Positions 7,884-57,544 of a DNA stretch of 64,000 nt are shown one piece after another. The notes beneath the pieces are model-generated. The model did not search any database, had not been told where the DNA came from, and saw nothing but the letters and a program-made list of their open reading frames with translations. Positions within the stretch are counted from its first letter, which is position 1, and every line of letters starts with the position of its first letter. The DNA is taken from NCBI GenBank assembly GCA_043228905.1, contig JBHGNT010000004.1, positions 6,696,001 to 6,760,000 of the forward strand, given 5' to 3'. This stretch comes from Azolla caroliniana (taxonomy: Eukaryota; Plantae; Polypodiophyta). The translations under genes and the position numbers were made by a program.

Positions 7884-8833
7884 AGATAGATGTTAGTAAA
7901 TAGAACTAAGGAGTTGTATGATGGAAAATTTTCTCATTACATGTTTGCATACACTTTTGATATGCTATTTGATTTCTAACTCATGATACTCGTAGCTAGG
8001 AACCTACATTGTAAAACTACAATCGAAAGTCATGAGTGCTCCTTATATAATCATGAAATGTAATATGTTATCTTATGATTTGAAAGTGCATCTTCCAATG
8101 TTACTTGTCTACAAATGAGGAATGTATCCCCCCCTTCTCCCTTGTCCATGCTGATAGGTAAAACATCTTCATCCCAGTCCTATGACTTTTTCAAAAGACA
8201 TCTATATGTCATGTGATGTTTTTAGAACCCTTATATGGGTGGCAGACGTCAAATCTTAACATTGTTTGGAAGATATCCTTGTTGTGTCCACAACAATATC
8301 CATCAAACATATGACCAATTGGCGAAAATGAAATGAGTTCTCCAATATACTTATAATTCATCCCTTAAGTAAGTGAATATTCTACCTATATTCTCATTAT
8401 AGTTCAGCTTTTTAGGGATCCTACAAATTTGAGTGAGGAATACCTTCCAAACAATGTTAAGATTTGACGTCTGCCACCCATATAAGGGTTCTAAAAACAT
8501 CACATGACATATAGATGTCTTTTGAAAAAGTCATAGGACTAGGATGAAGATGTTTTACCTATCAGCATGGACAAAGGAGAAGGGGGGGATATATTCCTCA
8601 TTTGTAGACAAGTAACATTGTAAGATGCACTTTCAAATCATAAGATAACATATTACATTTCATGAGTATATAATGAGCACTCATGACTTTTGATTGTAGT
8701 TTTACAATGTAGGTTCCTAGCTACAAGTATCATGAATTAGAAATCAAATAGCATATCAAAAGTGTATGCAAACATGTAACAAGAAACATTTTCCATTATA
8801 CAACTCCTTAGTTTTATTTACTAACTTCTATCT
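7884..8833. repeat. Long inverted repeat (fold-back), ~390-bp arms, ~165-bp spacer
   Basis: About 7884-8275 is the reverse complement of about 8440-8833 (e.g. GGGTGGCAGACGTCAAATCTTAACATTGTTTGGAAG / CTTCCAAACAATGTTAAGATTTGACGTCTGCCACCC) with scattered substitutions. No TSD was seen. Confidence 0.95.
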
Positions 8834-19319: not shown

Positions 19320-19326
19320 GATACCA

Positions 19327-19713
19327 TGTAAAGAATCAAGAGATGGATTCTTGTGAAGCGGAAGAGATGTGAGTTGTGTGTGTGTGTAAGAGAGAGTGAG
19401 AGAGAGAGAGAGAGAGAAACACAGAGAATACGCAAGGTAAGAGTATATTGACAAAGGAGAAAGACTCAACATATTACAAGGTGGGAGGAGGGTGCTTTAT
19501 GCAGTCACCCTCTCTCTTCATTAACTACAAGCCTCATGGAGCATGGGGAATGTGAAAGCTCATAAGTTATGTGTCATAGAATATGATTCTATGACTCATA
19601 CTAAATGCTAGAATACAAAGTGGTGACATAATGTTGACTCTTGACCGTTGGAGTGTCTCTTCACTCTCAAGGTGAGTTCACACACTAGACCAAGTTGAGC
19701 TTGATTCTCAACA
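19327..19713 (-). repeat. 3' LTR of inner copia
   Basis: Reverse complement of the outer LTR family, TG...CA, preceded on the minus strand by the PPT. Confidence 0.95.
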
Positions 19714-19834
19714 CGCCCCCTCAAGCTCAAGTCGGGTCGGTTTCAGACGGTATCCGAAATCCACTTCAACTCGCGTTCTGGAGTCCGCGTCGACTCGGGT
19801 CGACTCGCATGTATGCGGAGTTGCGGAATCCGTG

Positions 19835-19965
19835 CTCCAGCTTGCGTTGTGCGTAGTTACGAAGTCTGTGCTTCGGCTTGCGTGCGTAGTTGCGAAGTCT
19901 GTGCTTCAGCTTGCGTGCGTAGTTGCGAAGTCTGTGCTTCGGCTTGCGTGGTTGCGGAATCCACA
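19835..19965 (-). repeat. 33-bp tandem repeat in the copia 3' UTR
   Basis: About 3.5 copies of CTTGCGTGCGTAGTTGCGAAGTCTGTGCTTCGG. A related, shorter array lies at about 39730-39810 in the outer copy. Confidence 0.85.
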
Positions 19966-19967
19966 CG

Positions 19968-22900
19968 TTATTGCGTAGTGTCTTTAGTACTCCCCCTCAA
20001 GCTTGGCAGATCAGGGATCGTCAATCCGAGATCGGTCATGAATTTCCATAGCTTGTCGGCGCCTAAGGCTTTAGTGAAGATGTCGGCCGTTTGAAGATTG
20101 GTGCTTATGTGTTGTAGGTCGATATCGCCAGCTAGAACGCGCTCTCGGATGAAGTGATAGTGCACTTCGATGTGCTTTGTCCATGCGTGGAACACCGGGT
20201 TCTGAGCCAGATAAATACTTCTCATGTTGTCGCAGTAAAGGGGAGTCGGATCCTTGATGGGAACGCCCAAATCCTTCAAAATCCTCTTAAGCCATACGGC
20301 TTCACATGCAGCTACGGTTGCGCCCCTATATTCTGCCTCCGTACTCGAGAGAGCGACGGTAGGCTGCTTCTTGCTACTCCAGGATATTGCTCCACTGCCG
20401 AGGGAGAAAACAAATCCGGAGGTTGATCTTCTATCGGCTTTGTAGCCGGCCCAATCGGCATCTGTGTACCCCTCGAGTCATATTGGCATTTCGGTCTTGT
20501 AGAGGATGCCGCAATCCATTGTGCCGCTCACGTATCGTCGAACTCTCTTAGCGCAATCCAAGTGAGTATCACGCGGTGTTTGCATGAATTGACTAAGGAG
20601 ACCGACCGGATAACTAAGATTGGGTCGAGTGATCGTGAGGTAGATGAGACTCCCGATGAGTTGACGATACTGAGTCAGCTCACACGCTTTGGTGCCGGAG
20701 TTCGCATCTAGTTTGAGATTACGATCGAGCGGGGTTGCCACGGATTTGCACTCAGCCATCCTAAACTTGTACAGTAAGTTGAGGATGTAGTGATGTTGAG
20801 AAATCATGATTCCGGCTGGAGTCCGAATTACCTCGATGCCGAGGAAGTAGTGGAGCTCCTTCATGTCCGTCATCTCGAACTTGTCGGAAAGGAGGGATTT
20901 GACCTTAGTGATTTCGACGAGATGCTCACCTCCAATGACTAGGTCATCCACATATAAGATGATGACGATCAGACTTGCGGAATCGCTTCGTATGTAGAGG
21001 GAGTTGTCCGATTTGGACATACGGAAGCCGATTTGATGAAGATATTGTGTTATCTTCGAATGCCAGGCACGCGGTGCTTGCCTTAGGCCGTAGAGTGGCT
21101 TCTTGAGTCGGCATACGGCTTTTGGATGAGTGCTCGAGTTGAAGCCGGGTGGTTGGATCATGTACACCTCCTCTTCTAATTTGCCTTGTAGAAAGGCATT
21201 CTTGACGTCCCTTTGATGGAGGTGCCACCCTTTCGCCGCGGCAAGCGCAATTACAGTCCGCACCGTTGTCATCTTTGCCACCGGGGCAAAGGTCTCTTCG
21301 TAGTTGACGCCATGTGTCTGAGTGTATCCTTTCCCTACGAGTCGAGCTTTGTAGCGGTTGACGGAAACGTCCGCGTTGTACTTCACTTTGTAGATCCATC
21401 TGCATCCGATCGCCTTTTTGTGTGGTGAGGTGGGAACGAGATCCCATGTCTCGTTCTTCCGTAATGCCTCCATCTCATCGCTCATTGCTTCGATCCATCG
21501 CGGGTCCTTCGCAACTTCCGAAAAGGTTTCCGGCTCCCGTACTGTTGCTACCTTCATCATAAAGGCGTAATGGTACGCCATGTAATCGTTGTAGCCGAAT
21601 CGACTTACGGGGTTCTTTTCACAAGTGGATCGGCGGAGCTTTTCATTTGCAGAGATGAGGGCTTTCTTTGCTCCGATTGGTACCTCAAAACCGCTAAACT
21701 CACTGTCGAGTGAGTGAGTTGACTCATCGTCGGTGAAGCGATCGTCTTCGTATTCCGTCATTTTCGCCTTGCCTTTGTCCATCTTCGGGCTAGGCCGTGA
21801 TGTGCTTTGATCGCTCAAAGGCTCTTGTGGTCCGCTTAGTCGGGTCGTGATCGGACTTTCTTTGAACATGCCCGTAGAATGATCTTCATCCTCTATCTCT
21901 TGTTCAGCGGATTCTGGGTCGAGTGGAGTCGGAGTCAGAGTTGTCTCTGGTGCGTACCAGGATGCGGACTCGTCAAAGACGACGTCTCGACTTACCCAAG
22001 ATTTTCGAGTTGAGGGGTTGTAGCACTTGTACCCCTTTTGCTCTAGTGAGTATCCTACGAGGATACATTTCTCCGACTTCGGATCGAGCTTTTCACGCTT
22101 CTCGTCGGGGATGTGCACGTACGCAATGGAGCCGAATATCCGAACATGTGATAGGTTTGGCTTCTTTCCGAAGAATTTTTCGTGCGGAGTGACCTCGTGC
22201 ACGCCAGATGTTGTGCACCGGTTCATTAGGTAGACGGCCGTATTTGCCACTTCGGCCCAATATGACTTGGGCATATGCTTCTCGTTCATCATGCCCCGTG
22301 CTACTTTGAGGATATGCTGATTTTTGCGCTCGGCTACTCCGTTTTGTTGCGGAGTGTGTCAGCAAGTGAATTCTCGCCGAATTCCTTCCTTTCGGAGATA
22401 CGCCGTGAAATCATCCGAGAAGTACTCCTTGCCGCCATCCGATCGAAGGCATCGTACATGTCGGCCCGTGGCTTTCTCGACCTCATTCTTGAACTTTTGG
22501 AAGTGTCCGAACACTTCGCTTTGTTGCCGCATCGGATAGATCCAAGTGTGCCTAGAAACGTCGTCGATGAAGAGCACGTAATATCGGCATCCGCCGAATG
22601 TCGCCGTTTGGGCCAGACCCCATACATCGGAATGAATTACGTCGAGTACGCCTTTGCTCACATTTCGCTCCTTCGGGAATGGGTGTCGATGTTGCTTGCC
22701 GAATTGGCACGCTTCGCATACACCTTCAATCTCCTTCTCTTTGAATGTCGGGAGTCCGATAACGACTCCTTTCAATTTCATTGCTTTGAGTTTGTTGAGA
22801 TTGATGTGGCCGATTCGCTTCTGCCATAGCTCTATGTCGGAGTCGGCTTTCGTGCTTTTCGCGAACATGGCGGATTTAATCTCGTGCGAATCGAGAATGA

Positions 22901-23098
22901 AAATCTGACCCTCTCTTCTTCCGCGTGCAATGATTCGGCCTTCTTTTTCGATGAAGCACCCTTCTTGGTCGAATCGTACTTGCATCCCTTGCTCAATCAT
23001 TTGGCCGACCGAGACCAAATTCTTTGTGATGGTGGGAACATGCAAGACATTTTTAATGTATGTTTGCTTACCTCTTTCGCCGAACAGAACATTGCCGA
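19968..23098 (-). pseudogene. Copia PR-end/IN/RT/RNase H of the inner element (disrupted)
   Basis: ORFs 22359-23114, 20478-22292 (604 aa, YVDD) and 19968-20279 (QTADIFTK). Confidence 0.93.
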
Positions 23099-23532
23099 TG
23101 TCATGATATGGCAAGACTCGAACCCATGACCTTATACTACATGGGTCGAGCTCTTGACCATTAAACTATACATTGTAATACATAGAATATTATTTTCATT
23201 TATGTTTTATTATAGAAAATTGATGTATATTCTAGATTTCTCTGGAACATTCTAGAAACTTCAGGAGTATTCCTTAGAACACTATAAAAGGAGGCACAAG
23301 GCATTATTTCGAACCAAATCGGTTCAACGCCAGTCTTAAGCCTCCTAGCTACTGTACATTTTCTTCACATAATATATATATTTTCTTATCATCATTCTCT
23401 CTCTCTCTCTCGATCTCTCTCTCCCTCCCTCTCACTCACTCTTTCCTTCTCTCGAGAGTTCTTCACCTCTCTTAGTACTAATACTTCTTTTAGTACTAAT
23501 TCCTTCTCTGTCTTAGTACTGTTCCTGACAGT

Positions 23533-23545
23533 TTGAACCGATTTG
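23533..23545 (+). promoter_or_regulatory. Self-priming site complementary to the element's predicted transcript 5' end
   Basis: TTGAACCGATTTG is the exact reverse complement of CAAATCGGTTCAA at 23315-23327, about 30 nt downstream of TATAAAA (23283-23289). There is no TGG-type tRNA PBS. Confidence 0.88.
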
Positions 23546-24741
23546 CTACCTTCTGTCTCTCTCATTTCCTACTAATCTCTTATTCCTCTTTTCTTTCAGT
23601 CCATGGCCACTGTTAGCACTGAAGAATATCAATCTGTTTTCTCAGAATTTCAATGCTTCAAAGAGAAGTTCCATGCTTTGGAACAAGAAAACCAACGGTT
23701 GCTGGGGGATCTTCAGTAAATCTCCTTAGAAAAGTAGCAAACGCAACAACAGCATGGGGAACTTGCGTTACGCGTGCAACAACTCGAAGCAACCATCATA
23801 GCGATGCAACAACAAGGGCCCGGAACACAAGGGATTCATAAAGAACCCAAGATTGGCCTTCCCACGAAGTTTGATGGAACGTGATCGCAGTTTAGAGGGT
23901 TCCTTAACCAGGTACGATTAGTTATTCAAATGCATCCTTCCCGGTATCCCACCAATGCATCACGAGTGGGTTTAGTAGGCACTTTGTTAAGTGGCTCAGC
24001 GTTGGCATGGTTCGCTCCACTATTAGAAAAGGAATCCCCGTTACTCAACAATTTTGAAGAGTTTCTAGGTGAGTTTAAAGCATGTTTCGGAGATACTGAT
24101 AGCATCAGGACCGCAATCAACAAAATTTGGCGATTACGCCAAGGTGACCGTCCAGCCTCCGCATATGCTGTAGATTTTCGCCTACTCGCCGCTGATATCC
24201 CTTGGGATGATCAAGCGTTGATGGAGCAATTCCATTATGGTTTACGCAACAACGTCAAGGATTTACTCTTGACCTTCCCCGAAGAGCCAAAGTCCTTAAC
24301 AGAAGAAATCAGTCGCGCGGTGAGATGTGACAACCGCCTCTTTGAGCGACGTTCGGAACGACAACTACAGATGCCGAGGGCAAGATCAGAGCCCACCTAC
24401 GCCTCAGTGGTAGCAAGACCTTTTCCGAGGGAGTCATATAATGCGCCTCCAGCGAATACTCCGACTCTGATGGAGATTGACACTACACGTCGTCGAGGCC
24501 CATTATCCGAAGAAGAAAAGCAGTGACGCCGTACAAATCGACTATGTCTTTACTGCGGTGGACCAGGACATATTGCAATAAATTGCCCCCATAGGCCAAG
24601 AAGACAGGTAAACCAAATAGTCGCTAGTTCTAATTGTACTAAACCCGAGCCTATTTCAGTAGGGATATCTGATAGTCCTAATAGTACTAATAGCCCAGAT
24701 CTAGCAAACAGATTTGATGTCCTTAGTCAGTTAGAAGAAGA

Positions 24742-24793
24742 GTTAAACAACTAAGTCCAGCCAAAATAGGAGCCGTTTGGTTGGACAGCCCTA
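24742..24793 (+). promoter_or_regulatory. Putative -1 ribosomal frameshift signal (gag to pol)
   Basis: G-TTA-AAC just before the gag stop, a 6-nt spacer, then stem GTCCAGCCAAA/TTTGGTTGGAC, whose loop TAGGAGC can pair with GCCCTA. pol is in the -1 frame and open from the heptamer. Confidence 0.72.
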
Positions 24794-27700
24794 GATCTGT
24801 GCAACCCATTAGTGGTTCCATTCCCTCTAAGCAAGTTAGTGATGTGTTCGTAGCCCAAGTAATAGTTAGTACTAAAAGTACCCCTCCAGTACATGTCCTA
24901 GCACTCCTAGATTCCGGAGCTAACTCTTGCTTTATGGATAATAAATTTGCTCAAGCTCATAAGATATCCCTAAGAAAACTCCAGTGTCCAGCCTCTCTAG
25001 TAGTCATTGATGGACGTCCCATTGCTTCCGGAAATATCATAGAAGAGTCAGAGCCCATTAATATTGTCCTAGATAACTTAGCATGTGTAGTATCATTTAA
25101 TATTATTAGTATCCCAGAACATCCCATAGTTTTAGGATTACTGTGGTTCGAGTTACATAACCCAGACATAGATTGGAGAACAAGAGAAATCCGGTGTAGA
25201 CAAACCCAAGGGTCAACTCAGAAGATGGCAACCATTTCGCTACGTCAGTTGCGTAAAGAAGGGCACAAGGAGGAAATGTTCCTCTTTGCAATATCAGTAA
25301 ACCCCTCCAGCACCACTAAAGAAGGATCCACCGTTCAACTTCCCGAGAAGTATCGTCATTACGCCGATGTGTTCGATAAAGTACAAGCCAACACACTTCC
25401 TCATCATCGACCGTACGATTGCCCCATCGATTTACAACCGGTAAAAGAGCTGCCATGGGGACCGATCTACAATTTGTCACCAACCGAGCTGGAAGTCCTT
25501 CGGGCCTATATAGAGGAGAATTTGGAAAATGGTTTCATCCGGCACTCGAAATCTCCAGCCGGCGCGCCCATTTTCTTCGTCAAGAAAAAGGATGGATCGC
25601 TTCGTCTTGTTGTACATTACCGTGGCCTGAATAAGGTTACAATCAGGAATAGGTATGCTCTTCCCCTTATCTCAAGTCTTTTAGAACGGATCAATGGTGC
25701 CAGGTTCTTCACGAAGATCGACTTAGGGGGAGCATATAACCGCGTACGGATTCAACCAGGAGACGAATGGAAGACCGCGTTTCGCACCAGATATGGGCAC
25801 TTCGAGTATACAATCATGTCGTTCGGCCTCACTAATGCACCGGCAGTCTTCCAGCACATGGCTAAAGATATATTCCGAGATCTATTGGATGATTGTTTGA
25901 TCATCTATTTGGATGATCTACTGGTTTATTCAACGACCCAAGAAGAACATGATTCTCATGTACTATTAGTACTAAAACGACTTCGAGAACATGGTCTGTA
26001 TGCAAAGCTGGAAAAATGTAGTTTCGGGTGCAACCAAGTGGAATTTCTCAACTACATCATTTCGTCAGAAGGCATCTCCATGGACCCAGCTAAGGTCAAA
26101 ACGGTGGTAGAATGGCAGACTCCACGTTCGGTGCGGGATGTGCAATGCTTCCTAGGCTTTGCCAATTTTTACCGGAAGTTCATACAAGATTACTCAAAGA
26201 TCACAACTTACCAGGAAGGGACAACCGTTCATTTGGTCTAAAGAAACGGACGTGGCTTTCGAGAGTCTTAAAAAGGCATTTACATCAGCTCCAATTCTAG
26301 CTCATTTCGATTCGGAAAAACCATTTATTATCGAAGCTGACGCATCGGATTTTGCATTGGGGAGCATTCTGTCACAACAAGGGAATGATGAGAAGCTACA
26401 TCCTGTGGCGTTTCACTCACGCAAGTTTGACGCCGCCGAAATCAACTACGAAATTCATGATAAGGAGCTATTGGCAATAGTGGATTCTTTTATGCAATGG
26501 AGGTATTTTCTAGAGGGATCCTCTCATCCGGTCACCGTATTTCGTGACCACAAGAACCTTGCCTACTTTCAGGATGCTCGTGTGTTGAATCGACATCAAG
26601 CTCGGTGGGCCCACTTCCTCACGCGTTTCGACTTCAAAATTACATATCATCCGGGGAAGCACCAAGGGAAGGCCGATGCATTATCATGGCGTTCGTACCT
26701 AGCACCCCGTCCCGGCGAGCCAGCTTTCGATAACCAAAAACAAGTCATCTTGGGACCGGCACGACTACAAGCAACAAAGATCTTTGACATGCCCATGGAT
26801 TCCCGCGTTATTGATACCATACGCGAAGACTTGAAGACAGATGCGTTCGCCCAAGCTATACTAGCACAAATTGATCCCTCTCGAGCGTCGTGTTCACAAT
26901 CGCAACCACCAGGTACGGACTATCGGCAATTCAAATACCATGATGGATTACTCTTCTTTAAAGAACTTTTGTATGTTCCTAATGGTTCTTGCCGCCTTCA
27001 AGTAGTACAAAACTGTCATGACACATATACAGTTGGGCATTTTGGTAGTACTAAAACATTACATTTAGTACAACGATCATTCTGGTGGCCCTGTATGCGA
27101 CAATTTGTCGAGGATTTTGTTCGAACTTGTGATACATGTTGCAAAGCAAAAATGCCAAGGCATCATCCATATGGTTTATTAGAACCATTACCAATTCCAA
27201 GCAAGCCATGACAATCCATTGCTCTAAACTTCATCACAGATCTTCCAGTCTCTAAGGGGTTCAATGCGATTCTAACGGTGGTCGATCAATATACGAAGAT
27301 GGCTCATTTCTTGCCATGTACTAAGGAGATCTCCAGTGAAGACACTGCCGAAATTGTCATGCGTGAAGTATGTCGGCATCATGGACTTCCCGATAGTATC
27401 ATCAGCGACCGCGGACCCCAGTTCGTGTCAAAATTCTAGAAGCACCTTTTTAACATGCTCAAGGTCACTTGTAACCTCTCCTCCGGCTACCACCCACAAA
27501 CCGACGGCCATGTCGAACGAACCAATCAAACGCTGGAGCAATATCTGCGGTGCTTTCTCAGCTATCATCAGGATGACTGGGCAGATATTCACCACTTCGC
27601 CGAATTTGCCTATAACAACTCTATCCACGCATCCACGAAAGTTACGCCATTTTATGCTTATAAGGGATGTCACCCCCGGTGGTGTGTACTTGAAACCCCA

Positions 27701-28741
27701 GAGGTGTCCACAAATCCTTGCGCAGAGGATCGTTTGGAGAGGTTACGCAAGATACAGGCGGATTTATCTACTCATCTCCAACAAGCTCAACAAACACACA
27801 AGGTTTATGCGGATCGTCATCGACTCCCATCTAGTTTTAACATTGGAGATCGGGTATGGCTACTCCGACGACACATCAAGACTACTCGCCCATGCGAGAA
27901 GTTGGATTATCGGTGATTAGGTCCTTTCCGTATTATTGGAAAGATTAATGATGTCGCTTTTCGTCTTGATCTACCTCCACAACTTCGGATACATCCGGTG
28001 TTTCATAGTTCTCTCCTCGAACCCTATCAAGAAAGCACCATCCCAGGATGTATTACACAGCCTCCACCCCCGATTGAGCTTGAAGATGGACTTGAGTACG
28101 AGGTTGTCGCCATCCTTGATTCCAAGCTTGTTCGCAACAAGCTCTACTATCTAGTCGATTGGCTAGGATATAGTCCCAGCGAGCGTACTTGGGAACCGAT
28201 AGAGAATGTCACCAATGCTCGTGCTCTTCTTGAAGACTTCCATCGTCAATATCCAGACAAACCGGGTCCTCAATCCAAAACGACTCATTACACTCGTCAT
28301 TTTAAAGGGGGGATAGTGTCATGATATGGCAAGACTCGAACCCATGACCTTATACTACATGGGTCGAGCTCTTGACCATTAAACTATACATTGTAATACA
28401 TAGAATATTATTTTCATTTATGTTTTATTATAGAAAATTGATGTATATTCTAGATTTCTCTGGAACATTCTAGAAACTTCAGGAGTATTCCTTAGAACAC
28501 TATAAAAGGAGGCACAAGGCATTATTTCGAACCAAATCGGTTCAACGCCAGTCTTAAGCCTCCTAGCTACTGTACATTTTCTTCACATAATATATGTCTT
28601 TTCTTATCATCACTCTCTCTCTCTCTCTCGATCTCTCTCTCCCTCCCTCTCACTCACTCTTTCCTTCTCTCGAGAGTTCTTCACCTCTCTTAGTACTAAT
28701 ACTTCTTTTAGTACTAATTCCTTCTCTGTCTTAGTACTAAT

Positions 28742-29547
28742 TTCTTTATGGGATGTCATATGGTTTGAGGCTTCGGAGTCTACAAACCATACGTCCTCCG
28801 GATTGAGGGCACTAGTTGAGGTAGGGGCCGACATAGAGTTTGCTCTATGTTTCATCATGAACATTCCGCCACGGTCAGAGTTCCATGCATACATTCCGCC
28901 ACAATCTTCGTAGTCGGAGTTGTTCCCGTACATTGCACTATACTCCTCGTAGTTGGAATTGTGTGCGTAATTCGTGAGTTGTCAGCTTGTGGAAGCCGAT
29001 TCACGCATCTTCTTTCGGCACTCTTATTCGCGATGGCCAAGCTTTCCGCAATATCCGCATTCGGTTGCGTTTTGACGGCTCGGGCCGGATTGGAAGCTCC
29101 CCCTTCTTGCGAAGGTTCCTCGTTGGCCTCCGTTTTGCGGCCGAAATTGGGAGTTGTTGTCGTAGGTCGGACCTCGTCCGCCTTGTCTTTGGCCGAATCG
29201 GCCTCTCACTCGTACGCGTCCTCTTCCTCCATTAGAGTGCGTGTAGAGCATGTGGCCTTCCGACTCATTGCTCCTTGTACGCACGTGGCTTTCTTCGACC
29301 AATAGCATTGATTGGAGCTTGAAGAAGGAGGGAGATTTCTCCCGTGCTAGAACGGCGGTTCGCATCGCGCCGAACCGTGGTGCGAGGCCACCGAGGCATA
29401 TTTGCACCATCTCATCATCATCTATACTTATGCTTATTGAGCCGAGCGAGTCACAAAGCTCCTTGATCTTCAAGGTGTATGTCGTGATGGACATGTCCCT
29501 TTGTGGAATGTTGTTCAACTCTTGGCGGAGTTGAAGCTTCCTCGCGG
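28742..29547 (-). pseudogene. Inner copia gag (C-terminal part) to protease
   Basis: NNIPQRDMSITTYTLKIKELC...CGYCGKLGH...WFVDSEASNHMT. Confidence 0.9.
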
Positions 29548-32109
29548 TGTCGCGTTGTTACGCGCGTGCGTGGAGAAAGGCGGGACCACGGGGGTCTTGG
29601 ACTAGGGAGAGAGAGAGCGTAGGAAGTCGTGCTTCACTGTTTCTGGGGCATCCCGGAAGCACCCGAAGGGAGAGAGAGAGAGCTTAACACCGACTCACGC
29701 ACACACACGCACACACAGCCCAAGCCGACTCACGCCTTATGTACAGAAAACACAGGAGAGGTTAAGCACCCGACGCCAACAACGATGCGAATATACACAG
29801 ACAAACGTATATATATGTATATATAAAGGGAAGGATACATTCCCGGCGTCGAGCCGGACTGCAGGTAGGTTACAGTAGTCGTCAGCTGCCAAGCCGCCAT
29901 CGGGGAGCTCTCAGCTCGTCGCGCCGAGCGGGGTCTTGCACAGGAGGCCGAACCAAAGCAAACCCTAAGCAAACACGAGGGGGAAGAAGAAGGAGAAGAA
30001 GAAAACCTAACTCTAAACTTAACGGTATACCCTCTAATACAAAATGGGCAACCCTTTCACAAAGGGCGTTCATTTCCTTTTATAGAACAAGGAAAGGGAT
30101 GCGTTACAATGTGGGACAAATCCTGACTTACATGGGATTGTCTGTCCCGGCTTAACTACTCTTCGGCGCCATAAAGGCGCCCCCGATATTCACACCAAAT
30201 GTACATGGGTGCGTACACACGCTGCACCCTGCCGATGTAGCCAATGTTTTCCGGTTTCCGCCTCTGGCCGAAATTCTTCATGACATCCGCCCCCACCTAA
30301 CTGCACGTCCACCGGTATGTGCCAAATCTGGTTGAAGGGTGAGAGATTTCGGCCGGTGAGAAATCGGTCTCCCGTGATCCGCATCTCGGCTCGCTGCCGG
30401 TTTGATCCGTCGGCTCCGAGTCTTCCTTCGCGCTCGCCTCCCCGTAGGCTCGTTCGACCCGTCGATAGGTCCTCTGCCGCGATCTCCGTAGTACGCGTAC
30501 TTCCGTTGGCCCTTGTTCGGCCGTATGAACGCCCCGCTTCCCGTCGTAGGCCCAATGTCCTCCACTTGAGGCATGCCCGTAGTGGCCCGCTTGGCCTCCG
30601 TTGACCAACCGTGATGTCCTGATGTTGTTTCGAGTTGGCTTCGTCCTTTCGCCGCCACCTTCCTTCTCCATAGTCTTACATCGCCGCGTCGGCTCGAACC
30701 GCCATGGTCTCCGGAACGGTGTGGAGGGTCCCTTTTCCGGTCTTCTCCGCGCTTGCCTTCCCGCTCCGGCACCTCAGTGTGCCACATACCCTCGACCGTT
30801 GTTTGGCACTGCCTGTGCCGTACCCCGGTTCATTGCACGCCTCGTCGGCCCCTTTCCCGGCCAGATCGTGCATCGCCGCTCACCCGCATATCGGTGTCCT
30901 TTGCATCCGAGGAACACCCCGTAGTAGCCCGCTTGGCCCTTCCCATCTTCGTGCTGTGGCGATAGGTCTTGAGTCTTCCGCTTGCCGTCGTCCCCTCGCC
31001 CCACCAGCTTGTCACCCCCGGCTTGCCGTGTCAGTCTTCGCTACTTCGACGGAGCTACCGAGATCTACGAAGCGAGTGCGGAGGATCCTCCTCCGGCCTC
31101 TCTTGCCATCCCTTGACTCCGACCTTGTGCAGTCCACTAGGCACTTGTCCCCTCGTTCCCGGCACCTCCCTTGTGTCGTCGGGTCCTGTTCCTTGCCGCC
31201 ACCGTCCTTCTCCCTCGGTCTTACGTTGCCACGTTGGCCGAACAGCCGGAGTTTCCTGATCGGTGTGAGGGTCCCATAGGACCGGACTCCGTTTCTATGC
31301 TTGCCGAAATTCGTGTGACTTTTGTTTGAGTCCCTCCCGGACTCTCCTCGTGTCTTCCTCGTAGCCGGGTCCCGTTTCCCGCCGCCACCTTCCTTCTCCC
31401 TCGGTCTTACGTCGCCACGTTGGCCGAACAGCCGGAGTCTCTGGTTAAGTGTGGGGATCCCGTAGGACCAGACTTCCTTACGCCCATAGCCTTCATCACC
31501 TCGCCGCCACCGTCAGTATCTTGGTCTTACGTCGACCGCGTTGCCGACTGCCAGAGTCTCTAGAACCGGTGTGAAGGATCTTCCGTAGACCGCCGATTTC
31601 CCTTCCTTGCCTTCGTCACCTCGCCGCCACCATCAGTATCTTGGTCTTACGTCGAGCGCGTTGCCGACTGCCGAAGTCTCTAGAACCGGTGTGAAGGATC
31701 CTCCGTAGACCGCCGTCTTCCCGACCCTGTCCCGGGTCGTCCTTCTCCGCATGCCGAGAGGGTGGTTTACTCCGCACCCTCTCCCATGGTACCGACGTAC
31801 CGTGTCCTCGGCCTCTTCGTAGGCCTGCTCTCTTCCTCCCTCCCGGAATGGTCATCCGGGAGTCCGCTCCGCCCGGTTCTCACTCGGGTTCGTTCGTCTT
31901 CCCCCGGATTGCCGAGTCCCGTTCCCCTGTCGCCACCATCCTCTCTTGTCAGACTCACGCCGGCGCTCGGGCCTGCAGCCGGATCGGTGTAAGGAATCCG
32001 ATAGGACCAGTTTTCATTCTCTTTCCATATCTCGACCTTCGCCCGGTCGGTCTTTCTCCCCATGTAAAAGAGGGCGGCTCGTCCCGCACCCTCTCCCGTA
32101 TCGGCACCT

Positions 32110-33531
32110 CTATGCCGAATCCGACTTCGATCGAACGGTCCACGACCGGGTTACGCTCCACACGTATCGGAATGCCGATCTCCTCGTGCCGCTTCCGTCC
32201 TCAGACTCCTCGCAGGCCATTCCCCATCCGACTTCGCTGGCATCGTGCCAGGACTCCTCGGTACCGCTGTCCATCTCCTCGGTCTTACATGGGCATACGG
32301 GCCCGAATGCCGAGATCTCCGGAATCGGGTCCGTGGGCTTTCGTCCGTTCCTTCCCCGTATCATCTCGCCGGTGATTCTTGGTCTATCGCCGCCGCCTTC
32401 CTCCGCTTGGGACTTACGTGGGCACTCGGGCCCAACTGCCATCATCTCGGGAGAAAATGTGGGAAGACACAAAGAATCGCTCGTCCGTTTTACGCCCTTG
32501 TTCGTAGCCACCGACTCTTCGTGGTCGGCGGTCGTCTTCTTACCGATCACACAAGCCCCGTCTTGGCTCGCTTCTCCAACGACCGGGGTCTCGGGCTGAC
32601 ACGCCCGAAACCGCCGGTCCCAACGTTCCGGTTCCGCGATCTGTATCTCGGCCTCGTCCTTGGCCGTTCTTTCTCCGCAAGTCGAGAGGGCGTTTCGTTC
32701 CACACCCTCTCCCGTGGTACCGTCGTACCTATCTTCCGCCGTCACGTGGCGCAAGTCCGTCTTCTCAATCTCGGCTTGTGGCTCCCGTCTTTCCTCTTCC
32801 TCGAGCATCGCCTCGAGAGCTGCGTACACCTCCGCAATCCTGGCCTCAACGCCAACCCTTGCCGACTCTTTTTGTCATTCGGCCTCTTCCCGCTGTGATG
32901 GCACGCCGTCGCGTCCCTTCCTCTTAGCCTTCTCGGCTCGCTCTTTGTCTAACCGTTGGCACACCCTTCCGACCTTTGACCAGTCCTCCGTAAGCCCATT
33001 CGCTCCGTCATCGTCTTCAAGCTCAATCCCGATGGCCTCCCGTTCCGCTCGGTCGATCGACCTGACGAACAATAGGACCTTGTCCGCCCCCACCAAACCT
33101 TGTTCCCACTCTGGGAGCCGAGCAAGCTGTCGCTCGAACTCTCAGAACGCCTTCGTCGCACCCCGATGGGTCTTTGCCGATGCTACCCACTGGTCGAAGT
33201 CGTGCCCTCCCCGGCTCTTCCGCCGTCCTCAGTATGCCTTCAGGAGCGCCTCTTCGAAGGCCTCACGGAGCTCCTTTACTTCCGCATGCATCCGGACAGC
33301 TACGACCCGGCAGAAGAACTCCAGCCTCAATGCCTCGTCTACGCCACACTCCTCCATTTCCGCGTTGTAGGCTTCCAAGTATGATGGGACTTTGTCCCCG
33401 TTGAAACGGCCGACTCTATCGACCACTCGCTCAACCGCTTGTTGCGCTGCTTCTCGCCTCATCACCACTCGTGCCGATTCCAACACCACTTCAGCCACCA
33501 TCTCCGCAAGGCCGTCGTCTTCCGACTCCAT
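32110..33531 (-). pseudogene. gag-like remnant plus low-complexity extension (unit 2)
   Basis: MESEDDG...VERVVDRVGRFNGDKVPSYLEAY...LRLEFFCRV, then GADKVLLFVRSID...LTEDWSKV. Frameshifted. Confidence 0.65.
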
Positions 33532-33568
33532 CCTCCCTTGCCGCCTTTCACGTCGGGTTCACCAAATA

Positions 33569-34245
33569 TGTCGTGTTGATACGCGCGTGCGTGGAGAAAG
33601 GCGGGACCACGGGGGTCTTGGACTAGGGAGTGAAGGAGAAAGATTAGCTCAAGAGGAGAAGAGAACGAATATGACATTATGATAGAAGAAGAAGAAGATG
33701 CAATCAAGATACTCAACAAAAAGTTCTATTAAGAAATGAATGATTACAACAATGGTGGCCGCCATGGCCGCACCAAACGACTATATGAAAAACCCTAAAG
33801 GAAAACCCAAGAAGAAAACCCTAACCAAAACCCTAACCCTAAAACGAAATGGGAAGAAGGAGAACCCTCGACTAAGTGGTATACCTTACTCACACAAAAT
33901 AGGCAACCCCCACAATGGTTCCTTCTCTCTCCTTTTATAGCACAAGGAGGGAAGACCGTCTACAAAAGTGAGACTAAAATATCCCCCTTTCATTCAAAGG
34001 GAATATTTGCCTTGATTTGGGGGAGGGTGAGATTGATGGCCCCCTTAACTCCCACCTCCTCACAAACAACTAGGTACCTATGTACCGCATAGTACCTCTC
34101 TCTCTCGCGTGGATGTGCGTACAACCACATCACCTTTATACCTTTATTACTATTACAAATACATTATGTACGTGTGCAACGTTGCACATTGCTCTTTGGC
34201 TCTCGTTGCTCAGGTTTCCGCTTGTGGACGAAAATCTTCACAACA
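33569..34245 (-). repeat. Middle LTR (subtype B) of the three-LTR element
   Basis: TG..CA ends. It shares about 60 bp at the U5 end and the terminal U3 bases with the outer LTRs, and is otherwise strongly diverged. It is flanked by a PPT (34246-34260) and a PBS (33547-33564). Confidence 0.88.
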
Positions 34246-36124
34246 TCTGCCCCCACCTAACCGCACATCCTCCGGTATGTGCCAAAACATACGGGAGAGA
34301 ACACGAGATTTTCGGCCACGACGACCGACGAGTCCTTAGCGTCCTCGTGGGCCCGCCCGGCTTTGTCTTCCACTTCGAGTAAGACCACCCCGTCCACACG
34401 AACCACCGCCGACTTCCGTCCCACCATCCTCGCCGAATGGTCTCAAACCGTCGGCACCATCCGATCCGCCACACTCGACGATGTTTGCCGAGTCGTTGCC
34501 TCCACCCGATCCGCCATGTCCACCGTGGGTCCTTGAACCACCGACTACATCCAACCCGCCGTATCCGATGCCCGTGTTTTCCTCCCCGTTCGGTCCTCCC
34601 GAACGTCGTCGCCGACTCGGTTGCTCTTCCTTTGTCCGCCTTGTATATCCTCTGGATGCGCTCCCGGTCGCATGCCGGATTCCGCCCTTTGCATGCCGCA
34701 CACCTCGGTGTGCCGACTCTCTCCGCTCCGCGCTTGCCTTCCGTAGGCTTTCCCCGTATGTCGATGTTGCCCTCCGAATGCGTGCTCGTGCTTCGGTCCT
34801 TCGATGACCCCATCACGCGTTTTTCGCTTTCCCCTTTTTCGTCGTGCTCTCTCGTAGTACAGTGTATCGTCATCCCGACCTCTGTGTCGGTGTCCCTCGA
34901 GGCTCTCGTTATCGCCTCACCTCGACTTGCGCCCTCTTGGCCCGCTTGGCCTTGTATGCCCTCCGGGAAGCCGCCGCGCTTTCTCTTCCCGGTGTGTACC
35001 CCGTTGTTCTCCGCACATCTCCTCCGTTTTCCTAGATACGACTCTCCGCTCATGCCGATCACGCTCGGCCCATGTCGTCGATCTTGGTGGTTCGTCGTGC
35101 CGTCCTTCGTCCCGCGCTTGCCTCTCGAAGGCTTGACCCGACCGTCATCGTCGGTCAATTGTTGTCGCCCATCCGCCGTATGCATGCTTGTGTCTTGGCC
35201 CTCCATCGTCCGTATTACATGCGTCTCGTGTCGTGCTTCTGCCGTAGACCCGACCTCCGCGTCGGTCTCCAACTCCTCGCCGCCACCCACCGCTTCTTTG
35301 TTCTCCTTTCGATCCGCGACCGCCGATGCCTCACGGGTAGGTGTGGAGGGTTCCTCCCACTCTCGGTTCACCACCGAGTCCTCGCCTCTCAAAGGCTCAA
35401 TCGGTCCACCGTTTCCGGTCACTTGTTGACGCTCTCTCGGATGCATGCTCGTTCTTGGGCCCTTCACCAACCATAGTGCATGCTTCGTGTTACACCCTTC
35501 ATCCACCGTAGACCTGACCTCCGCGTCGGCCACTTCTTCCTTTGTCACCGTAGCCCGTTCCGACCCGAGCTCGCCATTTTGGACCCTCTCGTCCATCATC
35601 TCATACCGGATACCCACTCTGATATCTCTGTCCGCTTCGGCCTCCGACTCCTCGCCGCCACCCGTTGTCTCTCCGGTCTCACGTTGATCCACAACCGCCG
35701 AAGTCTCTAGAATGGTTGTGGAAGGTCCCTCTCGCTCTCAGTCTTCTAGCAAGCCGTGATCACCGTGCCCACTAGGCCTCCTTCTCGCTCTCACCGGCTC
35801 CCACCGTAACCGTGCCCGGCCAGCTACGAATCGATCAAACAATCCCAGTCTTGCCGGCTTCCTTCGGTTCATGCCCGGTTGACCGGCCCCCGCTTCACTC
35901 TTCTTCCGCTCCGCCTCCCGGTCGGGTCGGATTACCGACCGCCTCATCTTTCGGTCGGGTCGGTTCCCGACTCGCTCCTCGATGCCGCTCCGGACCGCTC
36001 CTTCGGTCTTTTCGCACGTGCCCACTCCGGGCCTCTCATCCTCACGGCCACCGCCCATCTCCTCGGTCTTATGTCCGCGCTCAGACGCAACCGCCGAAGT
36101 CTCCGGCCCCGGTGTCGAGGGATC

Positions 36125-37354
36125 TCACCTCCGTCCGCTACAAACCTCCTCTTCGTCATTTCGGTTGCCCGCCTTGCTGCCGCCACCATCCGTCTCTCTA
36201 GGTCTCACACCGGCTCTTGGGCTGGTTGCCGGAGTCCCTAGGACCGGTGTGTGGAAGGTCGCGGCACCGCCGCTCGTCTCCTCTTCTTCCTCGACTTCGC
36301 AAGCCTCAAGTATGCTCGCGAAATTCTCGTAGAACGTTTCGGGCAACCGCGTCCCGAAACTTTTGCCCACTCTCGAAGTGGCATCCATTGCTCCGTAGAT
36401 ATCGGCCTCATCCATGGCCGTCCTCTTTCCACAAGTCGAGAGGGTCGCTCGCTCCGCACCCTCTCCCACATCGTCGCCATCGTGGTCGCCCGCCTTGCTG
36501 CCGCCACCGCCCGTCACTCTAGGTCTCACAACGGCTCTCGGGCCGGTTGCCAGAGTCTCTAGGCCCGGTGTGCGTAAGGTCGCAGCACCACCGCCCGTCT
36601 TCTCCCCGCTCGATGTTTCGGGCCTCCATGCCCGACCTCCCTCATGTCCGCTCGAATCGGCGATCGCCGCCTCACCGTCCCCGACCTCGTCCTCGGTCGA
36701 TCTTTCTCCGCATGTCGAGAGGGTGGCTCGCTCCGCACCCTCTCCCGTGGTACCGATGTACCATTCTCTTTCGGCCTCCTCATCCTCCGATCGCCTCTGG
36801 CCTGACTCCATAATAAGCCCTTCTTCGGCTTCGATTTTCCCCTTCACAAGCTCGCATGCCTCCCGTATTAGCGCTTCTAGGTCAAGCTCCTCCGAACCGT
36901 TTTGCGTTGAGCTCTCTTCCGGCGGTAGTGCATACTCACTCGCCGCTCTCTCTTCTCCGCCGTTCGTGGGCCATGTTGTTGCCGACCGCTCCCCATCGGG
37001 TTGCCCGCATACCCACTCCGGTTTCGCGTATCCGTACGCTTCCAATAAAGCTCCCTCGAAGGACTCCCATGACTCGTGAGCTTCTCGTAGCTCCTTGACA
37101 TCCTTCTGCACCTATACGGCCGCCACTCGCGGAAAATACTCTAGTCGCATCGCCTCGTCCACGCCCCCTTTCGCCATCTCGGCCTTCTAGGCTCCCAAAA
37201 TTTTTAGGACCTCATTCCCATTGAACCGGCCGACTCGATCGACCACCCTTTCGACGGCTTGTTGAGCCGCATCTCGCTTCACCATCTTTCATCCAGCTTC
37301 CATCACGATCTTTGCCATCATCTCCTTGAAGTCAAAGTCTTCTTCCATCTCCAT
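36125..37354 (-). pseudogene. gag-like remnant fused to an acidic low-complexity extension (unit 1)
   Basis: MEMEEDF...AVERVVDRVGRFNGNEV...AMRLEYFPRV...SWESFEGALLEAY with three in-frame stops, then an open E/G/T-rich tail. Confidence 0.65.
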
Positions 37355-37369
37355 GCTCCCTTGCCGCCT

Positions 37370-37387
37370 TTCACGTCGGGTTCACCA
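37370..37387 (-). promoter_or_regulatory. Primer binding site complementary to tRNA-Trp (second copy 33547-33564)
   Basis: The plus strand reads TTCACGTCGGGTTCACCA, the 3' 18 nt of plant cytosolic tRNA-Trp including CCA as I recall it, 4 nt inside the LTR. Confidence 0.85.
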
Positions 37388-38608
37388 AATATGTCGCGTT
37401 GTTACGCGCGTGCGTGGAGAAAGGCGGGACCACGAGGGTCTTGGACTAGGGAGAGAGAGAGAGCGTAGGAAGTCGTGCTTCACTGTTTCTGGGGCATCCC
37501 GGAAGCACCCGAAGGGAGAGAGAGAGCTTAACACCGACTCACGCACACACACGCACACACAGCCCAACCCGACTCACGCCTTATGTACAGAAAACGCAGG
37601 AGAGGTTAAGCACCCGACGCCAACAACGACGCGAATATACACAAACAAACGTATATATATGTATATATAAAGGGAAGGATACATTCCCGGCGTCGAGCCG
37701 GACTGAGGTAGGTTACAGTAGTCGTCAGCTGCCAAGCCGCCGTCGGGGAGCTCTCAGCTCGTCGCGCTAAGCGGGGTCTTGCACAGGAGGCCGAACCAAA
37801 GCAAACCCTAAGCAAACACGAGGGGGAAGAAGAAGGAGAAGAAGAAAACCTAACTCTAAACTTAACGGTATACCCTCTAATGCAAAATGGGCAACCCTTT
37901 CCCAAAGGGCGTTCCCTTCCTTTTATAGAACAAGGAAAGGGATGCGTTACAATGTGGGACAAATCCCGACTTACATGGGATTGTCTGTCCCGACTTAACT
38001 ACTCTTCGGCGCCATAAAGGCGCCCCCGATATTCACACCAAATGTACATGGGTGCGTACACACGCTGCACCCTGCCGATGTAGCCAATGTTTCCCGGTTT
38101 CCGCCTCTGGCCGAAATTCTTCACGACAGCGGTCGTGTTGTCGGCAAAAATCTTTCGTAGATTTTCCCACGCTTCCTTCGGCGTCTTGGCTTCTCGAATG
38201 TAACCGAGCATGTGGTCGTGAACACATGTCGCCAAACAATACATCACGCGGCTTGCGGCTTGCGGCTTGCTCCCATGTCGCGTATCCAAGAGCCGCTTCG
38301 GCGGGTCGGTCTTCATGCGCTCCTTTGATGTAGCTCCAATAGCCTTGTCCGACAAGGTATTGGTGCATCTTGTACTCCCAAGATGCGAAGTTGTTTCGAT
38401 CCAACTTCTCGGTAGGGAGAGTGCTCCCCATTTGAGTATTCATTATATCGATTCTTCTTCTTCTTCTTCTTCTTCTCTCTTCGAATGCGAGCTATGTAGC
38501 GAAGCTACGATAGCTATGAGCCGGTTCTTGGTCGTCGGCGTAGAGCACAACACACGATCACGATGAGGCGAATGGGCTAGATCGAGCTACCAAATCGCTC
38601 TAATACCA

Positions 38609-38988
38609 TGTAAAGAATCAAGAGATGGATTCTTGTGAAGCGGAAGAGATGTGAGTTGTGTGTGTGTGTAAGAGAGAGTGAGAGAGAGAGAGAAACACAG
38701 AGTATATGCAAGGTTTAGTATATTAACAAAGGAGAAAGACACGACATGATACAAGGTGGGAGGAGGGTGCTTTATGTAGTCACCCTCTTTCTTCATTAAC
38801 TACAAGACTCATGGAGCATGGGGAATGTGAAAGCTCATAAGTTATGTGTCATAGAATATGATTCTATGACTCACACTAAATGCTAGAATACAAAGTGGTG
38901 ACATAATGGTGACTCTTGACCGTTGGAGTGTCTCTTCACTCTCAAGGTGAGTTCACACACTAGACCAAGTTGAGCTTGGTTCTCAACA
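38609..38988 (-). repeat. 5' LTR of inner copia
   Basis: TG..CA on the minus strand, followed by an iMet-type PBS at 38597-38608. Confidence 0.95.
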
Positions 38989-39000
38989 CGCCCCCCTCAA

Positions 39001-56116: not shown

Positions 56117-56134
56117 GGCTGCCCAACACGGCAA

Positions 56135-56445
56135 AGAAGAAGAAGAAGAAGAAGAAGAAGAAGAAGACTTCTCTTCAAATGGAATTTAGACTTAACAGTA
56201 AAGGCTTAACTACATACTTAAACCCTCGCATCATCTTGGAGTCTCTAGACCCTAATTCTTCATTCGCCCATCTCCATTTTTGGATTTGAGTGGGCACCGC
56301 AAATAAGAAGAAGAGGAATTCTTAAAATGGAATTTAGACAAAAGTAGATAAGAGTCTTACCGCTTAAAACCCTCACCATCATCTTGGAGTCTTACTACTT
56401 AAACCCTAATTCTTCATTCCGCCGCCCATCTCCTTTAGATTTGAG
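56135..56445 (-). promoter_or_regulatory. NOV 5' UTR/promoter: (CTT)n tract, ~150-bp tandem duplication, telo-box
   Basis: (GAA)n at 56135-56166 on the plus strand. AAATGGAATTTAGAC...CATCATCTTGGAGTCT...CCCTAATTCTTCATTC occurs twice. AAACCCTAA at 56401. Confidence 0.55.
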
Positions 56446-57121: not shown

Positions 57122-57544
57122 TCAATAACGACCACCAATTGAGTTGTTATCAACCGGATACGCCCACCTAGTAATGTCTCGTACATTAAGGTTGGCTAGC
57201 TTTGCATCATCTGAATTAATCTTCCCTTTCTTTTTGTATTCGAGGATGCTTGGCCAAAACCCCATTCCTTGTTTAATCATTTCAAGCTTCTCCTTCCCGA
57301 TTCTTAGATCGACGTTTGCGACATAGTGTATAGCTTCGACGTGGCTCACATTGGTCTCATCCCTGATTTTCTTTAGACCGCCCCTACCAAAATTCACGTG
57401 CAAGGGCTTACGAGTCTCACTTGAGTGTATAATGTTGCCTTTCATGTAGACGAGGTTTTGTCGAATTGCTTGTTGAAGGCTAGCACAATCTTTCCTTGCA
57501 TGATCGACACTATCACACCACACAACTCTATATGGTTCTTTCAC
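57122..57544 (-). mobile_element. Gypsy-like gag fragment with degenerate zinc knuckle
   Basis: VVWCDSVDHARKDC followed by a gag-like tail. It is isolated and truncated. Confidence 0.5.

What the first reader, a model, noticed from the sequence alone, without database searches (positions are those of the whole stretch)
29544..38132. Pol-less, tRNA-Trp-primed retroelement with three LTRs of two types (A-unit1-B-unit2-A) inside one 4-bp TSD
Seen: 8.6 kb with two ~737-bp A LTRs (roughly 97-98% identical by eye) and a 677-bp B LTR sharing mainly U5 and the termini. Each unit has its own Trp PBS, gag remnant and PPT. No PR/RT/RH/IN is present, and the TSD is GCGG. Known: most plant LTR elements give 5-bp TSDs and use other tRNAs. 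Trp priming is, as I recall, associated with non-seed-plant Phygy/Selgy gypsy lineages. Inference: a heterodimer of two non-autonomous gag-only subfamilies. Either it moves as one RNA, with the divergent middle LTR avoiding internal strand transfer or polyadenylation, or a one-LTR circle of subtype B recombined into an inserted A element. It may be an undescribed parasitic family of a Trp-primed helper.
Basis: partly seen in the sequence, partly recalled or inferred. Interest (0 to 1): 0.78.

Follow-up and report, generated by a model that had tools for sequence, protein, structure and literature searches.

The report
Two capsid-only retrotransposons spliced together
This single insertion holds two different plant jumping genes that lack their own copying enzymes, joined at a short end signal they share, likely by a one-off accident; both belong to an old parasitic lineage that keeps a capsid-like gene with a long odd tail and likely borrows enzymes from complete relatives.

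Summary
The structure is real: 5' LTR A - unit 2 - LTR B - unit 1 - 3' LTR A on the minus strand, one GCGG target duplication, no pol. Relatives show A flanking unit 1 and B-like LTRs mostly flanking unit 2, so these are two ordinary two-LTR families. Both swapped junctions lie in a 98-bp block (U5 end, primer site, leader) that these families share with complete elements. Best reading: a one-off chimeric tandem joined at that block, probably as cDNA before one integration; later recombination of a B circle or cDNA is the close rival. A heterodimer that spreads as a unit has no support and could not be tested genome-wide. Three-LTR tandems with one TSD, chimeric ones included, are published. 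The less ordinary part is the family: a well-supported Gag clade with Phygy-type signals (4-bp NCGN TSD, likely Trp primer). It keeps a capsid domain under purifying selection, has no zinc knuckle, and runs on into 270-900 residues of acidic repeats and a Trp/Arg-rich tail. I found no description of it. New variant of a known kind; interest 0.45.

The parts
29544..29547 (.). Target-site duplication GCGG (fits NCGN on either strand)
   Evidence: empty site in the inverted host paralog near 15926
29548..30285 (-). 3' LTR, type A (738 bp)
   Evidence: 97.8% to the 5' LTR
30286..30298 (-). PPT of unit 1, preceded by a ~30-bp motif shared with unit 2 and with helpers
30286..33568 (-). Unit 1, internal region of the A family; dispersed and tandem ~90-120-bp repeats; no pol
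   Evidence: L026 pairs it with LTR A at both ends
32110..33531 (-). Unit 1 frame, 473 codons: capsid-like domain (about codons 10-205) plus acidic tail; internal stops at codons 101, 130, 219; end stop at the same place in 4 relatives
33533..33630 (-). Shared 98-bp block (last 62 bp of LTR, primer site at 33547-33564, leader) holding the swapped B-to-unit-1 junction
33569..34245 (-). Middle LTR, type B (677 bp), complete, without its own TSD
   Evidence: multi-copy in 4 of 4 runs
34246..34258 (-). PPT of unit 2
34246..37391 (-). Unit 2, internal region of the B family; no pol
   Evidence: L025, L014, L023 pair it with B-like LTRs
34247..37354 (-). Unit 2 frame, 1036 codons from leader to PPT: N-terminal half of the capsid domain only, acidic repeats, Trp/Arg-rich tail; stops at codons 22, 56, 81, 410, 539
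34370..34567 (-). Trp/Arg-rich C-terminal motif (approximate bounds), also in L025, L014, P0003, P0010 and partly L020
   Evidence: dN/dS 0.40 against L025
37356..37453 (-). Second copy of the shared 98-bp block (primer site at 37370-37387) holding the swapped A-to-unit-2 junction
37392..38128 (-). 5' LTR, type A (737 bp)
38129..38132 (.). Target-site duplication GCGG
19321..39000 (-). Host copia element whose gag is split by the insertion (also interrupted by a chromovirus-like element at 23099-28738)

Best explanation
The insertion holds two different pol-less retrotransposons, A-unit1-A and B-unit2-B, joined at the 98-bp end-and-primer block they share, likely as a one-off chimera made as cDNA before a single integration. 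Inferred route: both RNAs were packed in one particle supplied by a complete Phygy-type helper. Each was copied from the same tRNA. At the second (plus-strand) jump, which pairs only through the primer site, each strong-stop strand paired with the other genome. The A junction was resolved into two terminal A LTRs; the B junction was left as one internal LTR and sealed, as in a one-LTR circle. Helper integrase then placed the 8.6-kb DNA at a CG-centred site. Shown: structure, single TSD, native pairings in relatives, junctions confined to the shared block, a helper with the same ends. Inferred: co-packaging, the strand-transfer step, timing, and that it is single-copy. The wider claim (one-off chimera of two independent families joined in that block, by any route) I put at about 0.75.
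For: One 4-bp TSD and an intact host on both sides. Outer LTRs 97.8% alike; middle LTR B-type along its whole length. Unit-to-LTR 3' junctions are native and LTR-to-unit 5' junctions are swapped: L026 has unit 1 - PPT - A (87%) - primer site - unit 1 (93%); L025 has unit 2 - PPT - B-like (73%); 3 of 4 loci with a B-like LTR continue into a unit-2-type start. B-like LTRs occur after genomic flank (L022, L023) and as a solo LTR with an ACGG TSD (L022). The B allele 11 bp from the LTR end has about 4-12% of depth in 4 of 4 runs, the same order as the B body, so it is likely a family allele and the junction likely lies in the last ~46 bp of the block, which contains the primer site. The halves look about equally old: 3 copy-specific sites per 23 CG in B against about 8 per 52 CG in each A LTR, and 3 of 473 against 5 of 1036 codons stopped. 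Helpers share the U5 end and primer site. 10 of 11 non-PPT 5' flanks in relatives end in NCGN. Co-packaging complexes with one TSD are proposed in PMC1950507.
Against: The sequence cannot separate this route from recombination of a B cDNA or circle into an inserted A element; the age comparison has little power. The allele at -11 is not phased to the B body. One of 4 B-like LTRs in relatives (L022) is followed by a unit-1-like gag, so LTRs and internal regions have been reshuffled before, and native pairing rests mostly on relatives 7-27% divergent. L014, L025 and L026 are probably collapsed short-read contigs. A plus-strand jump between two genomes giving a sealed dimer is my inference; I found no paper showing it for plants.
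Confidence: 0.45

Rival explanations
1. An A element inserted first; later a B cDNA or one-LTR circle recombined into its U5/primer/leader block without integrase, duplicating the block.
For: Gives the identical structure. Shown by experiment in fission yeast: integrase-less Tf1 cDNA inserts at the primer site of resident Tf2 and makes hybrid tandems with one shared LTR (PMC11042837, passages).
Against: It allows a younger B half, and the crude counts show similar decay. The only homology is 98 bp.
Confidence: 0.3
2. The three-LTR heterodimer is itself a family that moves as one RNA read through the divergent middle LTR.
For: The structure is formally able to transpose: A R regions at both ends, a 5' primer site and a 3' PPT. 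Multi-LTR Cassandra copies with TSDs are proposed to spread via RNA (PMC4079214, passages). Unit 2 keeps only half a capsid, so partnering with unit 1 could help.
Against: Unit 1 is 1.9-3.5 times deeper than unit 2 in 4 of 4 runs (bin means worked by hand; depth is not copy number). None of 33 loci from relatives shows A followed by unit 2. The middle LTR keeps its TATA motif and the internal primer site and PPT would compete.
Confidence: 0.12
3. Assembly artefact: the assembler walked a loop through the shared 98-bp block.
For: The block is shared by very many elements (depth about 10-20 times the B body), the classic setting for a false join.
Against: The window resolves nested repeats of 90-99% identity over 64 kb. 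The two block copies differ, and both halves carry many copy-specific changes. TSD and host are continuous.
Confidence: 0.07
4. Ordinary nesting: a B element integrated at the end of the 5' A LTR and then lost its 5' LTR by recombination.
Against: LTR B is followed directly by the primer site with no leftover TSD or extra bases, so a second exact deletion would be needed.
Confidence: 0.04

Closest known systems
Template-switching complexes of Triticeae, rice and maize (Sabot and Schulman 2007, PMC1950507; abstract and whole body read)
   Same: Three LTRs, two internal regions, one TSD, matching outer LTRs; co-packaged RNAs proposed.
   Different: There the switch is between R regions of similar elements. 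Here the R regions and most of U5 are unrelated, the middle LTR is wholly of the second family, and the junctions lie at the primer block.
Tandem LTR retrotransposons in plants (Morales-Diaz et al. 2025, PMC11899658; parts 1-4 of 6 read, abstract to the start of the references) and three-LTR Cassandra copies (PMC4079214; passages)
   Same: Tandems sharing an internal LTR with one TSD are common (266 candidates in a rice pangenome; 182 three-LTR Cassandra copies with TSD in pear).
   Different: Those are repeats of one family; this joins two families whose internal regions share only about 73% over the first 310 bp plus short repeats.
Chimeric tandem non-autonomous elements and modular groups of sugar beet (PMC13570524; passages and section 38 read)
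   Same: Non-autonomous families share modules; 73 of 97 tandem copies keep a TSD; chimeras carry an extra LTR donated by another family.
   Different: Those are short, mostly non-coding elements in a seed plant; these are 4.5-4.8-kb monomers with a conserved long frame.
Integrase-independent Tf1/Tf2 hybrid tandems (PMC11042837; passages)
   Same: Primer-site homology directs a cDNA into a resident element and gives a two-family tandem with one shared LTR.
   Different: Tf1 and Tf2 are autonomous and nearly identical over long stretches; here homology is 98 bp.
Phygy clade of non-chromovirus Ty3/gypsy (Neumann et al. 2019, PMC6317226; passages and supplement 5 read; the element table and protein file were too large to read)
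   Same: 4-bp NCGN TSD, Trp-type primer site, seed-free plant setting; helper RT has relatives in Riccia and Adiantum.
   Different: Phygy was defined on complete elements whose polyprotein fills the internal region; these units have no pol. RT placement against reference Phygy sequences was not possible.
TR-GAG elements (Chaparro et al. 2015, PMC4350172; abstract and passages)
   Same: LTRs, primer site, PPT, a single Gag frame, no pol, many copies.
   Different: TR-GAGs are under 4 kb with 5-bp TSDs, and the described TR-GAG1 has a zinc knuckle; these are 4.5-4.8 kb, 4-bp TSD, no knuckle, capsid fused to long acidic repeats and a Trp/Arg tail.

Membership tests
Phygy | 4-bp TSD with NCGN motif | tested here: met
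   GCGG here; 10 of 11 non-PPT 5' flanks in relatives are NCGN; definition
Phygy | Primer site complementary to tRNA-Trp | tested here: inconclusive
   18-nt TGG-starting site conserved in the window and, by selection, 33 loci; Trp identity is recalled; no tRNA gene found in 68 of 68 loci scanned
Phygy | RT/RH/INT phylogeny inside the Phygy clade | not testable with these tools
   No reference Phygy proteins readable; helper RT hits 50-85% identity, named ones from Riccia and Adiantum
Phygy | Complete polyprotein spanning the internal region | tested here: not met
   No pol in either unit; met in part by helper L030. The units are derivatives, not members
TR-GAG | LTRs, primer site, PPT, Gag similarity, no protease/RT/RH/integrase | tested here: met
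   capsid fold of relative P0010
TR-GAG | Length under 4 kb and 5-bp TSD | tested here: not met
   Monomers would be about 4.8 and 4.5 kb; TSD 4 bp
TR-GAG | At least two copies | tested here: met
   Thousands of contigs laid on each part in 4 of 4 runs; relatives
Template-switching complex (Sabot and Schulman) | Internal LTR, two complete cores, flanking TSD, similar outer LTRs | tested here: met
Template-switching complex (Sabot and Schulman) | Switch between homologous R regions giving a chimeric middle LTR | tested here: not met
   Downstream of the TATA stretch B is unlike A except for the last 62-65 bp
Self-propagating multi-LTR family | Several copies of the whole structure with different TSDs | not testable with these tools
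   No genome held; contigs too short to phase the 98-bp block

The most novel reading that the evidence does not exclude
Seed-free plants carry an old, undescribed lineage of satellite retrotransposons that parasitise Phygy-type helpers through a copied U5/primer block and still make their own protein: a capsid domain (whole, or only one half) with no zinc knuckle, a long disordered acidic spacer and a Trp/Arg-rich tail that would replace nucleocapsid. The protein would co-assemble into helper capsids to favour its own RNA or throttle the helper. Shared particles would let families swap through the primer site, and this three-LTR insertion is a frozen product of that exchange, possibly able to move as a unit.
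Probability: 0.3. Interest if true: 0.7.

Novelty: new variant of a known kind. Interest (0 to 1): 0.45.

Why it matters
The tandem itself is a known kind, but because its two halves are unrelated outside a 98-bp block it pins the joint to the primer region. Same-family tandems cannot do that, so counting and dating such A/B chimeras genome-wide would test how plant tandem retrotransposons form, which PMC11899658 leaves open. The family matters more: non-autonomous elements are usually treated as decaying, yet these keep a capsid domain under purifying selection on a long separate branch, have lost the RNA-binding knuckle, and hold a frame open across the whole internal region. If the protein is made, it is a natural example of a satellite retroelement supplying its own capsid subunit.

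Tried and rejected
Own genome: not held, so the decisive copy count could not be run. Sequencing runs: no RNA holder listed; the best DNA holders carry at most 0.36 of the words and no piece spans the stretch, so the locus itself could not be checked by reads. Hidden pol: 0 Pfam families in 12 of 12 frames; tblastn with helper Pol negative. Idea that the internal repeats are decayed copies of the U5/primer/leader block: rejected, best 0.5 bits against up to 5.6 in 30 shuffles. Idea that the Trp/Arg tail is an out-of-frame piece of helper integrase: no likeness seen by eye in 8 Pol C-termini and 3 helper 3' ends. Structured RNA: one Rfam match at E 0.78, 20 bits against a 60-bit threshold, chance. 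Tool check of the Trp primer: 68 loci matched short patterns, 0 held a tRNA gene; a paper search found only unrelated primers. Viral contigs: 11 pattern matches, none confirmed. Foldseek gave no match at E <= 0.001 (best dArc1 capsid, E 0.028). Selection on the repeat region's amino acids: not shown (dN/dS 0.51-1.22; shifted-frame controls 0.69-0.72). One clade for all 11 pol-less-type Gags: not shown; L020 falls apart, p-AU 0.075. Searches for a prior description of pol-less Phygy derivatives found none in titles and abstract starts: 'Phygy' alone (18 papers), Phygy/moss/non-autonomous (swamped by unrelated hits), TR-GAG, fern/non-autonomous/gag. The library lacks most subscription journals. 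Earlier scan notes: no look-alike by sequence or words.
Full report
Observation. The element lies on the minus strand. From its 5' end: LTR A (37392-38128), primer site, unit 2 (34246-37391), PPT, LTR B (33569-34245), primer site, unit 1 (30286-33568), PPT, LTR A (29548-30285). GCGG flanks both ends, and an inverted paralog of the host copia near 15926 shows the empty site with a single GCGG. The A LTRs differ at 16 of 735 columns, K2P 0.022. B shares with A only the first ~33 bp, a TATA stretch and the last 62-65 bp, and has no TSD. No pol domain was found by Pfam in 12 of 12 read-through frames or by tblastn with helper Pol.

Lineage. Neumann et al. 2019 (PMC6317226; passages and supplement 5 read) list Phygy as 4-bp NCGN TSD (100%) and tRNA-Trp (81%); Selgy uses tRNA-Ala (90%); TatI (4 elements) also has 4 bp and Trp. 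GCGG fits NCGN. That the 18-nt primer site matches tRNA-Trp is recalled; my tool checks found no tRNA gene to compare. A scan for the LTR end plus primer site gave 33 metagenome loci. Of 19 LTR starts found in them, 8 follow a PPT or PPT-like tract and 11 follow other DNA; 10 of those 11 end in NCGN. Two loci, L030 and L032, carry Gag with a zinc knuckle, a protease-like region and RT in a second frame; L030 matches Pfam RVT_1 and RT_RNaseH. Their U5 end and primer site resemble the window's. Relatives of that RT include named proteins of Riccia and Adiantum; Phygy is also reported from a liverwort (PMC12885004, passages). Host genes and a chromovirus-like neighbour fit a plant; unchecked earlier notes call the genome a fern. 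So a helper exists in relatives and looks Phygy-like, but membership by RT tree was not testable.

Two families, not one. L026 reads unit 1 - PPT - LTR A (87%) - primer site - unit 1 (93%). L025 reads unit 2 (77%) - PPT - B-like LTR (73%) - primer site - unit-2-type start. L014 and L023 have B-like LTRs followed by unit 2 (87%, 93%). Against this, L022 has a B-like LTR (75%) followed by a unit-1-like gag (71%). So 3 of 4 B-like LTRs lead into unit 2, and none of the 33 loci shows A leading into unit 2. L014, L025 and L026 are probably collapsed contigs; they show that the junction types exist, not whole elements. L022 also holds a solo B-like LTR with an ACGG TSD. In four runs from four studies, unit 1 bins average 1.9-3.5 times the depth of unit 2 bins (8 and 9 bins, gag and end bins left out, averaged by hand); the tool warns that depth is not copy number, so this is a hint. 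Loose ends at 29610, 33630 and 34285 show many other LTR and internal types behind the same end signals.

Where the joints are. In the window both unit-to-LTR junctions are native and both LTR-to-unit junctions are swapped. Each swap lies in a 98-bp block: the last 62 bp of the LTR, then 36 bp of primer site and leader. B differs from the 3' A LTR at two places in it, 11 and 6 bp from the LTR end. At the first, the window's B letter holds about 4-12% of depth in 4 of 4 runs (two from one sample), the same order as the B body. It is therefore likely a B-family allele, which would put the joint in the last ~46 bp, around the primer site. It is not phased, so this is inference. The R-region switch of Sabot and Schulman (PMC1950507, whole body read) predicts an A-type R-U5 in the middle LTR, which is not seen.

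Mechanism. Two routes give this structure. (1) Co-packaged A and B RNAs exchange plus strands at the common primer site; the A junction resolves into two ends, the B junction is sealed inside; integrase inserts once. (2) A B cDNA or one-LTR circle recombines into a resident A element, as Tf1 does with Tf2 (PMC11042837, passages). Decay looks similar in both halves: 3 sites in B where all other copies differ (up to 10 at 25% or more) per 23 CG, against about 8 per 52 CG in each A LTR; 3 of 473 and 5 of 1036 codons are stops. That leans weakly to route 1 (0.45 against 0.30). A spreading heterodimer (0.12), an assembly loop (0.07) and nesting plus deletion (0.04) are less likely. No genome was held and no run holds the locus whole.

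The protein. Each unit has one long frame starting 37 bp after the LTR. Unit 1's ends at codon 474, and the stop sits at the same motif in L017, L022, L026 and L033. Unit 2's runs to the PPT. L025 has 912 codons open and L020 722, against at most 360 and 207 in 300 resamples each; unit 2 has 6 stops in its best frame against at least 15; unit 1's first 1480 bases do not beat the null. Database proteins P0003 (673 aa), P0010 (618 aa) and P0005 (1518 aa, internally duplicated) have the same build. The first ~200 residues match helper Gag (37% over 229 residues, E 8e-33). P0010 folds with high confidence over residues 1-210 and low confidence over most of the rest. Second-look matches are all capsids: dArc1 Z 10.5, rmsd 11.5, 154 aligned; Arc N-lobe Z 9.5, rmsd 1.7, 67 aligned; PEG10 C-domain Z 8.1, rmsd 2.5, 85 aligned. 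These Z values are modest for a helical domain and Foldseek had no hit at E <= 0.001, but the Atlas search also points to Retrotrans_gag (0.94). dN/dS over this domain is 0.21-0.38 in 7 of 7 comparisons; the repeats are near neutral (0.51-1.22; shifted-frame controls 0.69-0.72); the Trp/Arg tail gives 0.40. No zinc knuckle occurs in 8 of 8 pol-less-type DNA sequences or 3 of 3 such proteins, against 4 of 4 helper-type loci tested. Unit 2 keeps only the N-terminal half of the capsid domain, a loss shared with P0002; L025 keeps only the C-terminal half. In a tree of 31 Gag domains, 10 of 11 pol-less-type rows form a clade (100/100) on a stem of 1.04 changes per column, apart from 6 helper-type rows; L020 lies outside. 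Pol-lessness up to the PPT is seen only for the window's units, L020, L025, L026 and P0003; the other rows are fragments labelled by likeness. Expression was not testable.

Comparison and verdict. Three-LTR tandems with one TSD are common (PMC11899658, parts 1-4 of 6; PMC4079214, passages), and chimeric ones with a foreign LTR are reported in sugar beet (PMC13570524, passages and section 38). Gag-only elements are known as TR-GAG (PMC4350172, abstract and passages), but these fail its size and TSD limits. I found no description of pol-less Phygy-type families or of this fusion protein; subscription journals and the unread Neumann tables may hold one. The arrangement is a known kind with an unusually informative joint; the family is a new variant. 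Interest 0.45; novel case probability 0.3, interest 0.7 if true.

Noticed in passing
L022 33-735 and from 1342 (oriented as): A solo B-like LTR with an ACGG TSD and a second element of the same kind sit at equivalent sites of a ~300-bp tandem repeat, two units apart; the two LTRs are 93% alike.
   Followed up: partly
L020: A more distant pol-less element with a 722-codon open frame, the same internal repeats (6 matches) and a short Trp motif, but a Gag outside the main clade; a second primer site follows its 3' LTR.
   Followed up: partly
window 37028-37261 versus L025: Unit 2 keeps only the N-terminal half of the capsid domain and L025 only the C-terminal half, both in frame; half-capsid Gags recall the Ty1 p22 restriction factor (listed), untested.
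   Followed up: partly
window 57137-57535 (-): Old remnant matching helper Gag around the zinc knuckle, 39% over 130 residues.
   Followed up: no
window 15160-40307 and 58488-63897: Dense nest: at least three related copia copies, two of them inverted, and a chromovirus-like element at 23099-28738 with 99% identical LTRs and a near-complete pol, plus an older copy near 58.5-60.6 kb.
   Followed up: no
window 3991-5721 (+): Alpha/beta-hydrolase gene that looks KAI2/D14-like (label recalled), with a Gly/Asp repeat insert at 5214-5287.
   Followed up: no
window 41528-56185 (-): Large multi-exon gene resembling NO VEIN/sacsin-like ATPases (label recalled, not searched).
   Followed up: no
window 7884-8833: Inverted repeat with arms of 350-390 bp, 96% complementary, around a ~160-bp spacer; MITE- or foldback-like.
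   Followed up: no
L030 and L032: Helper Gag-protease and RT lie in different overlapping frames, so Pol is likely made by a frameshift; Neumann's table gives Phygy's organisation as not determined.
   Followed up: partly
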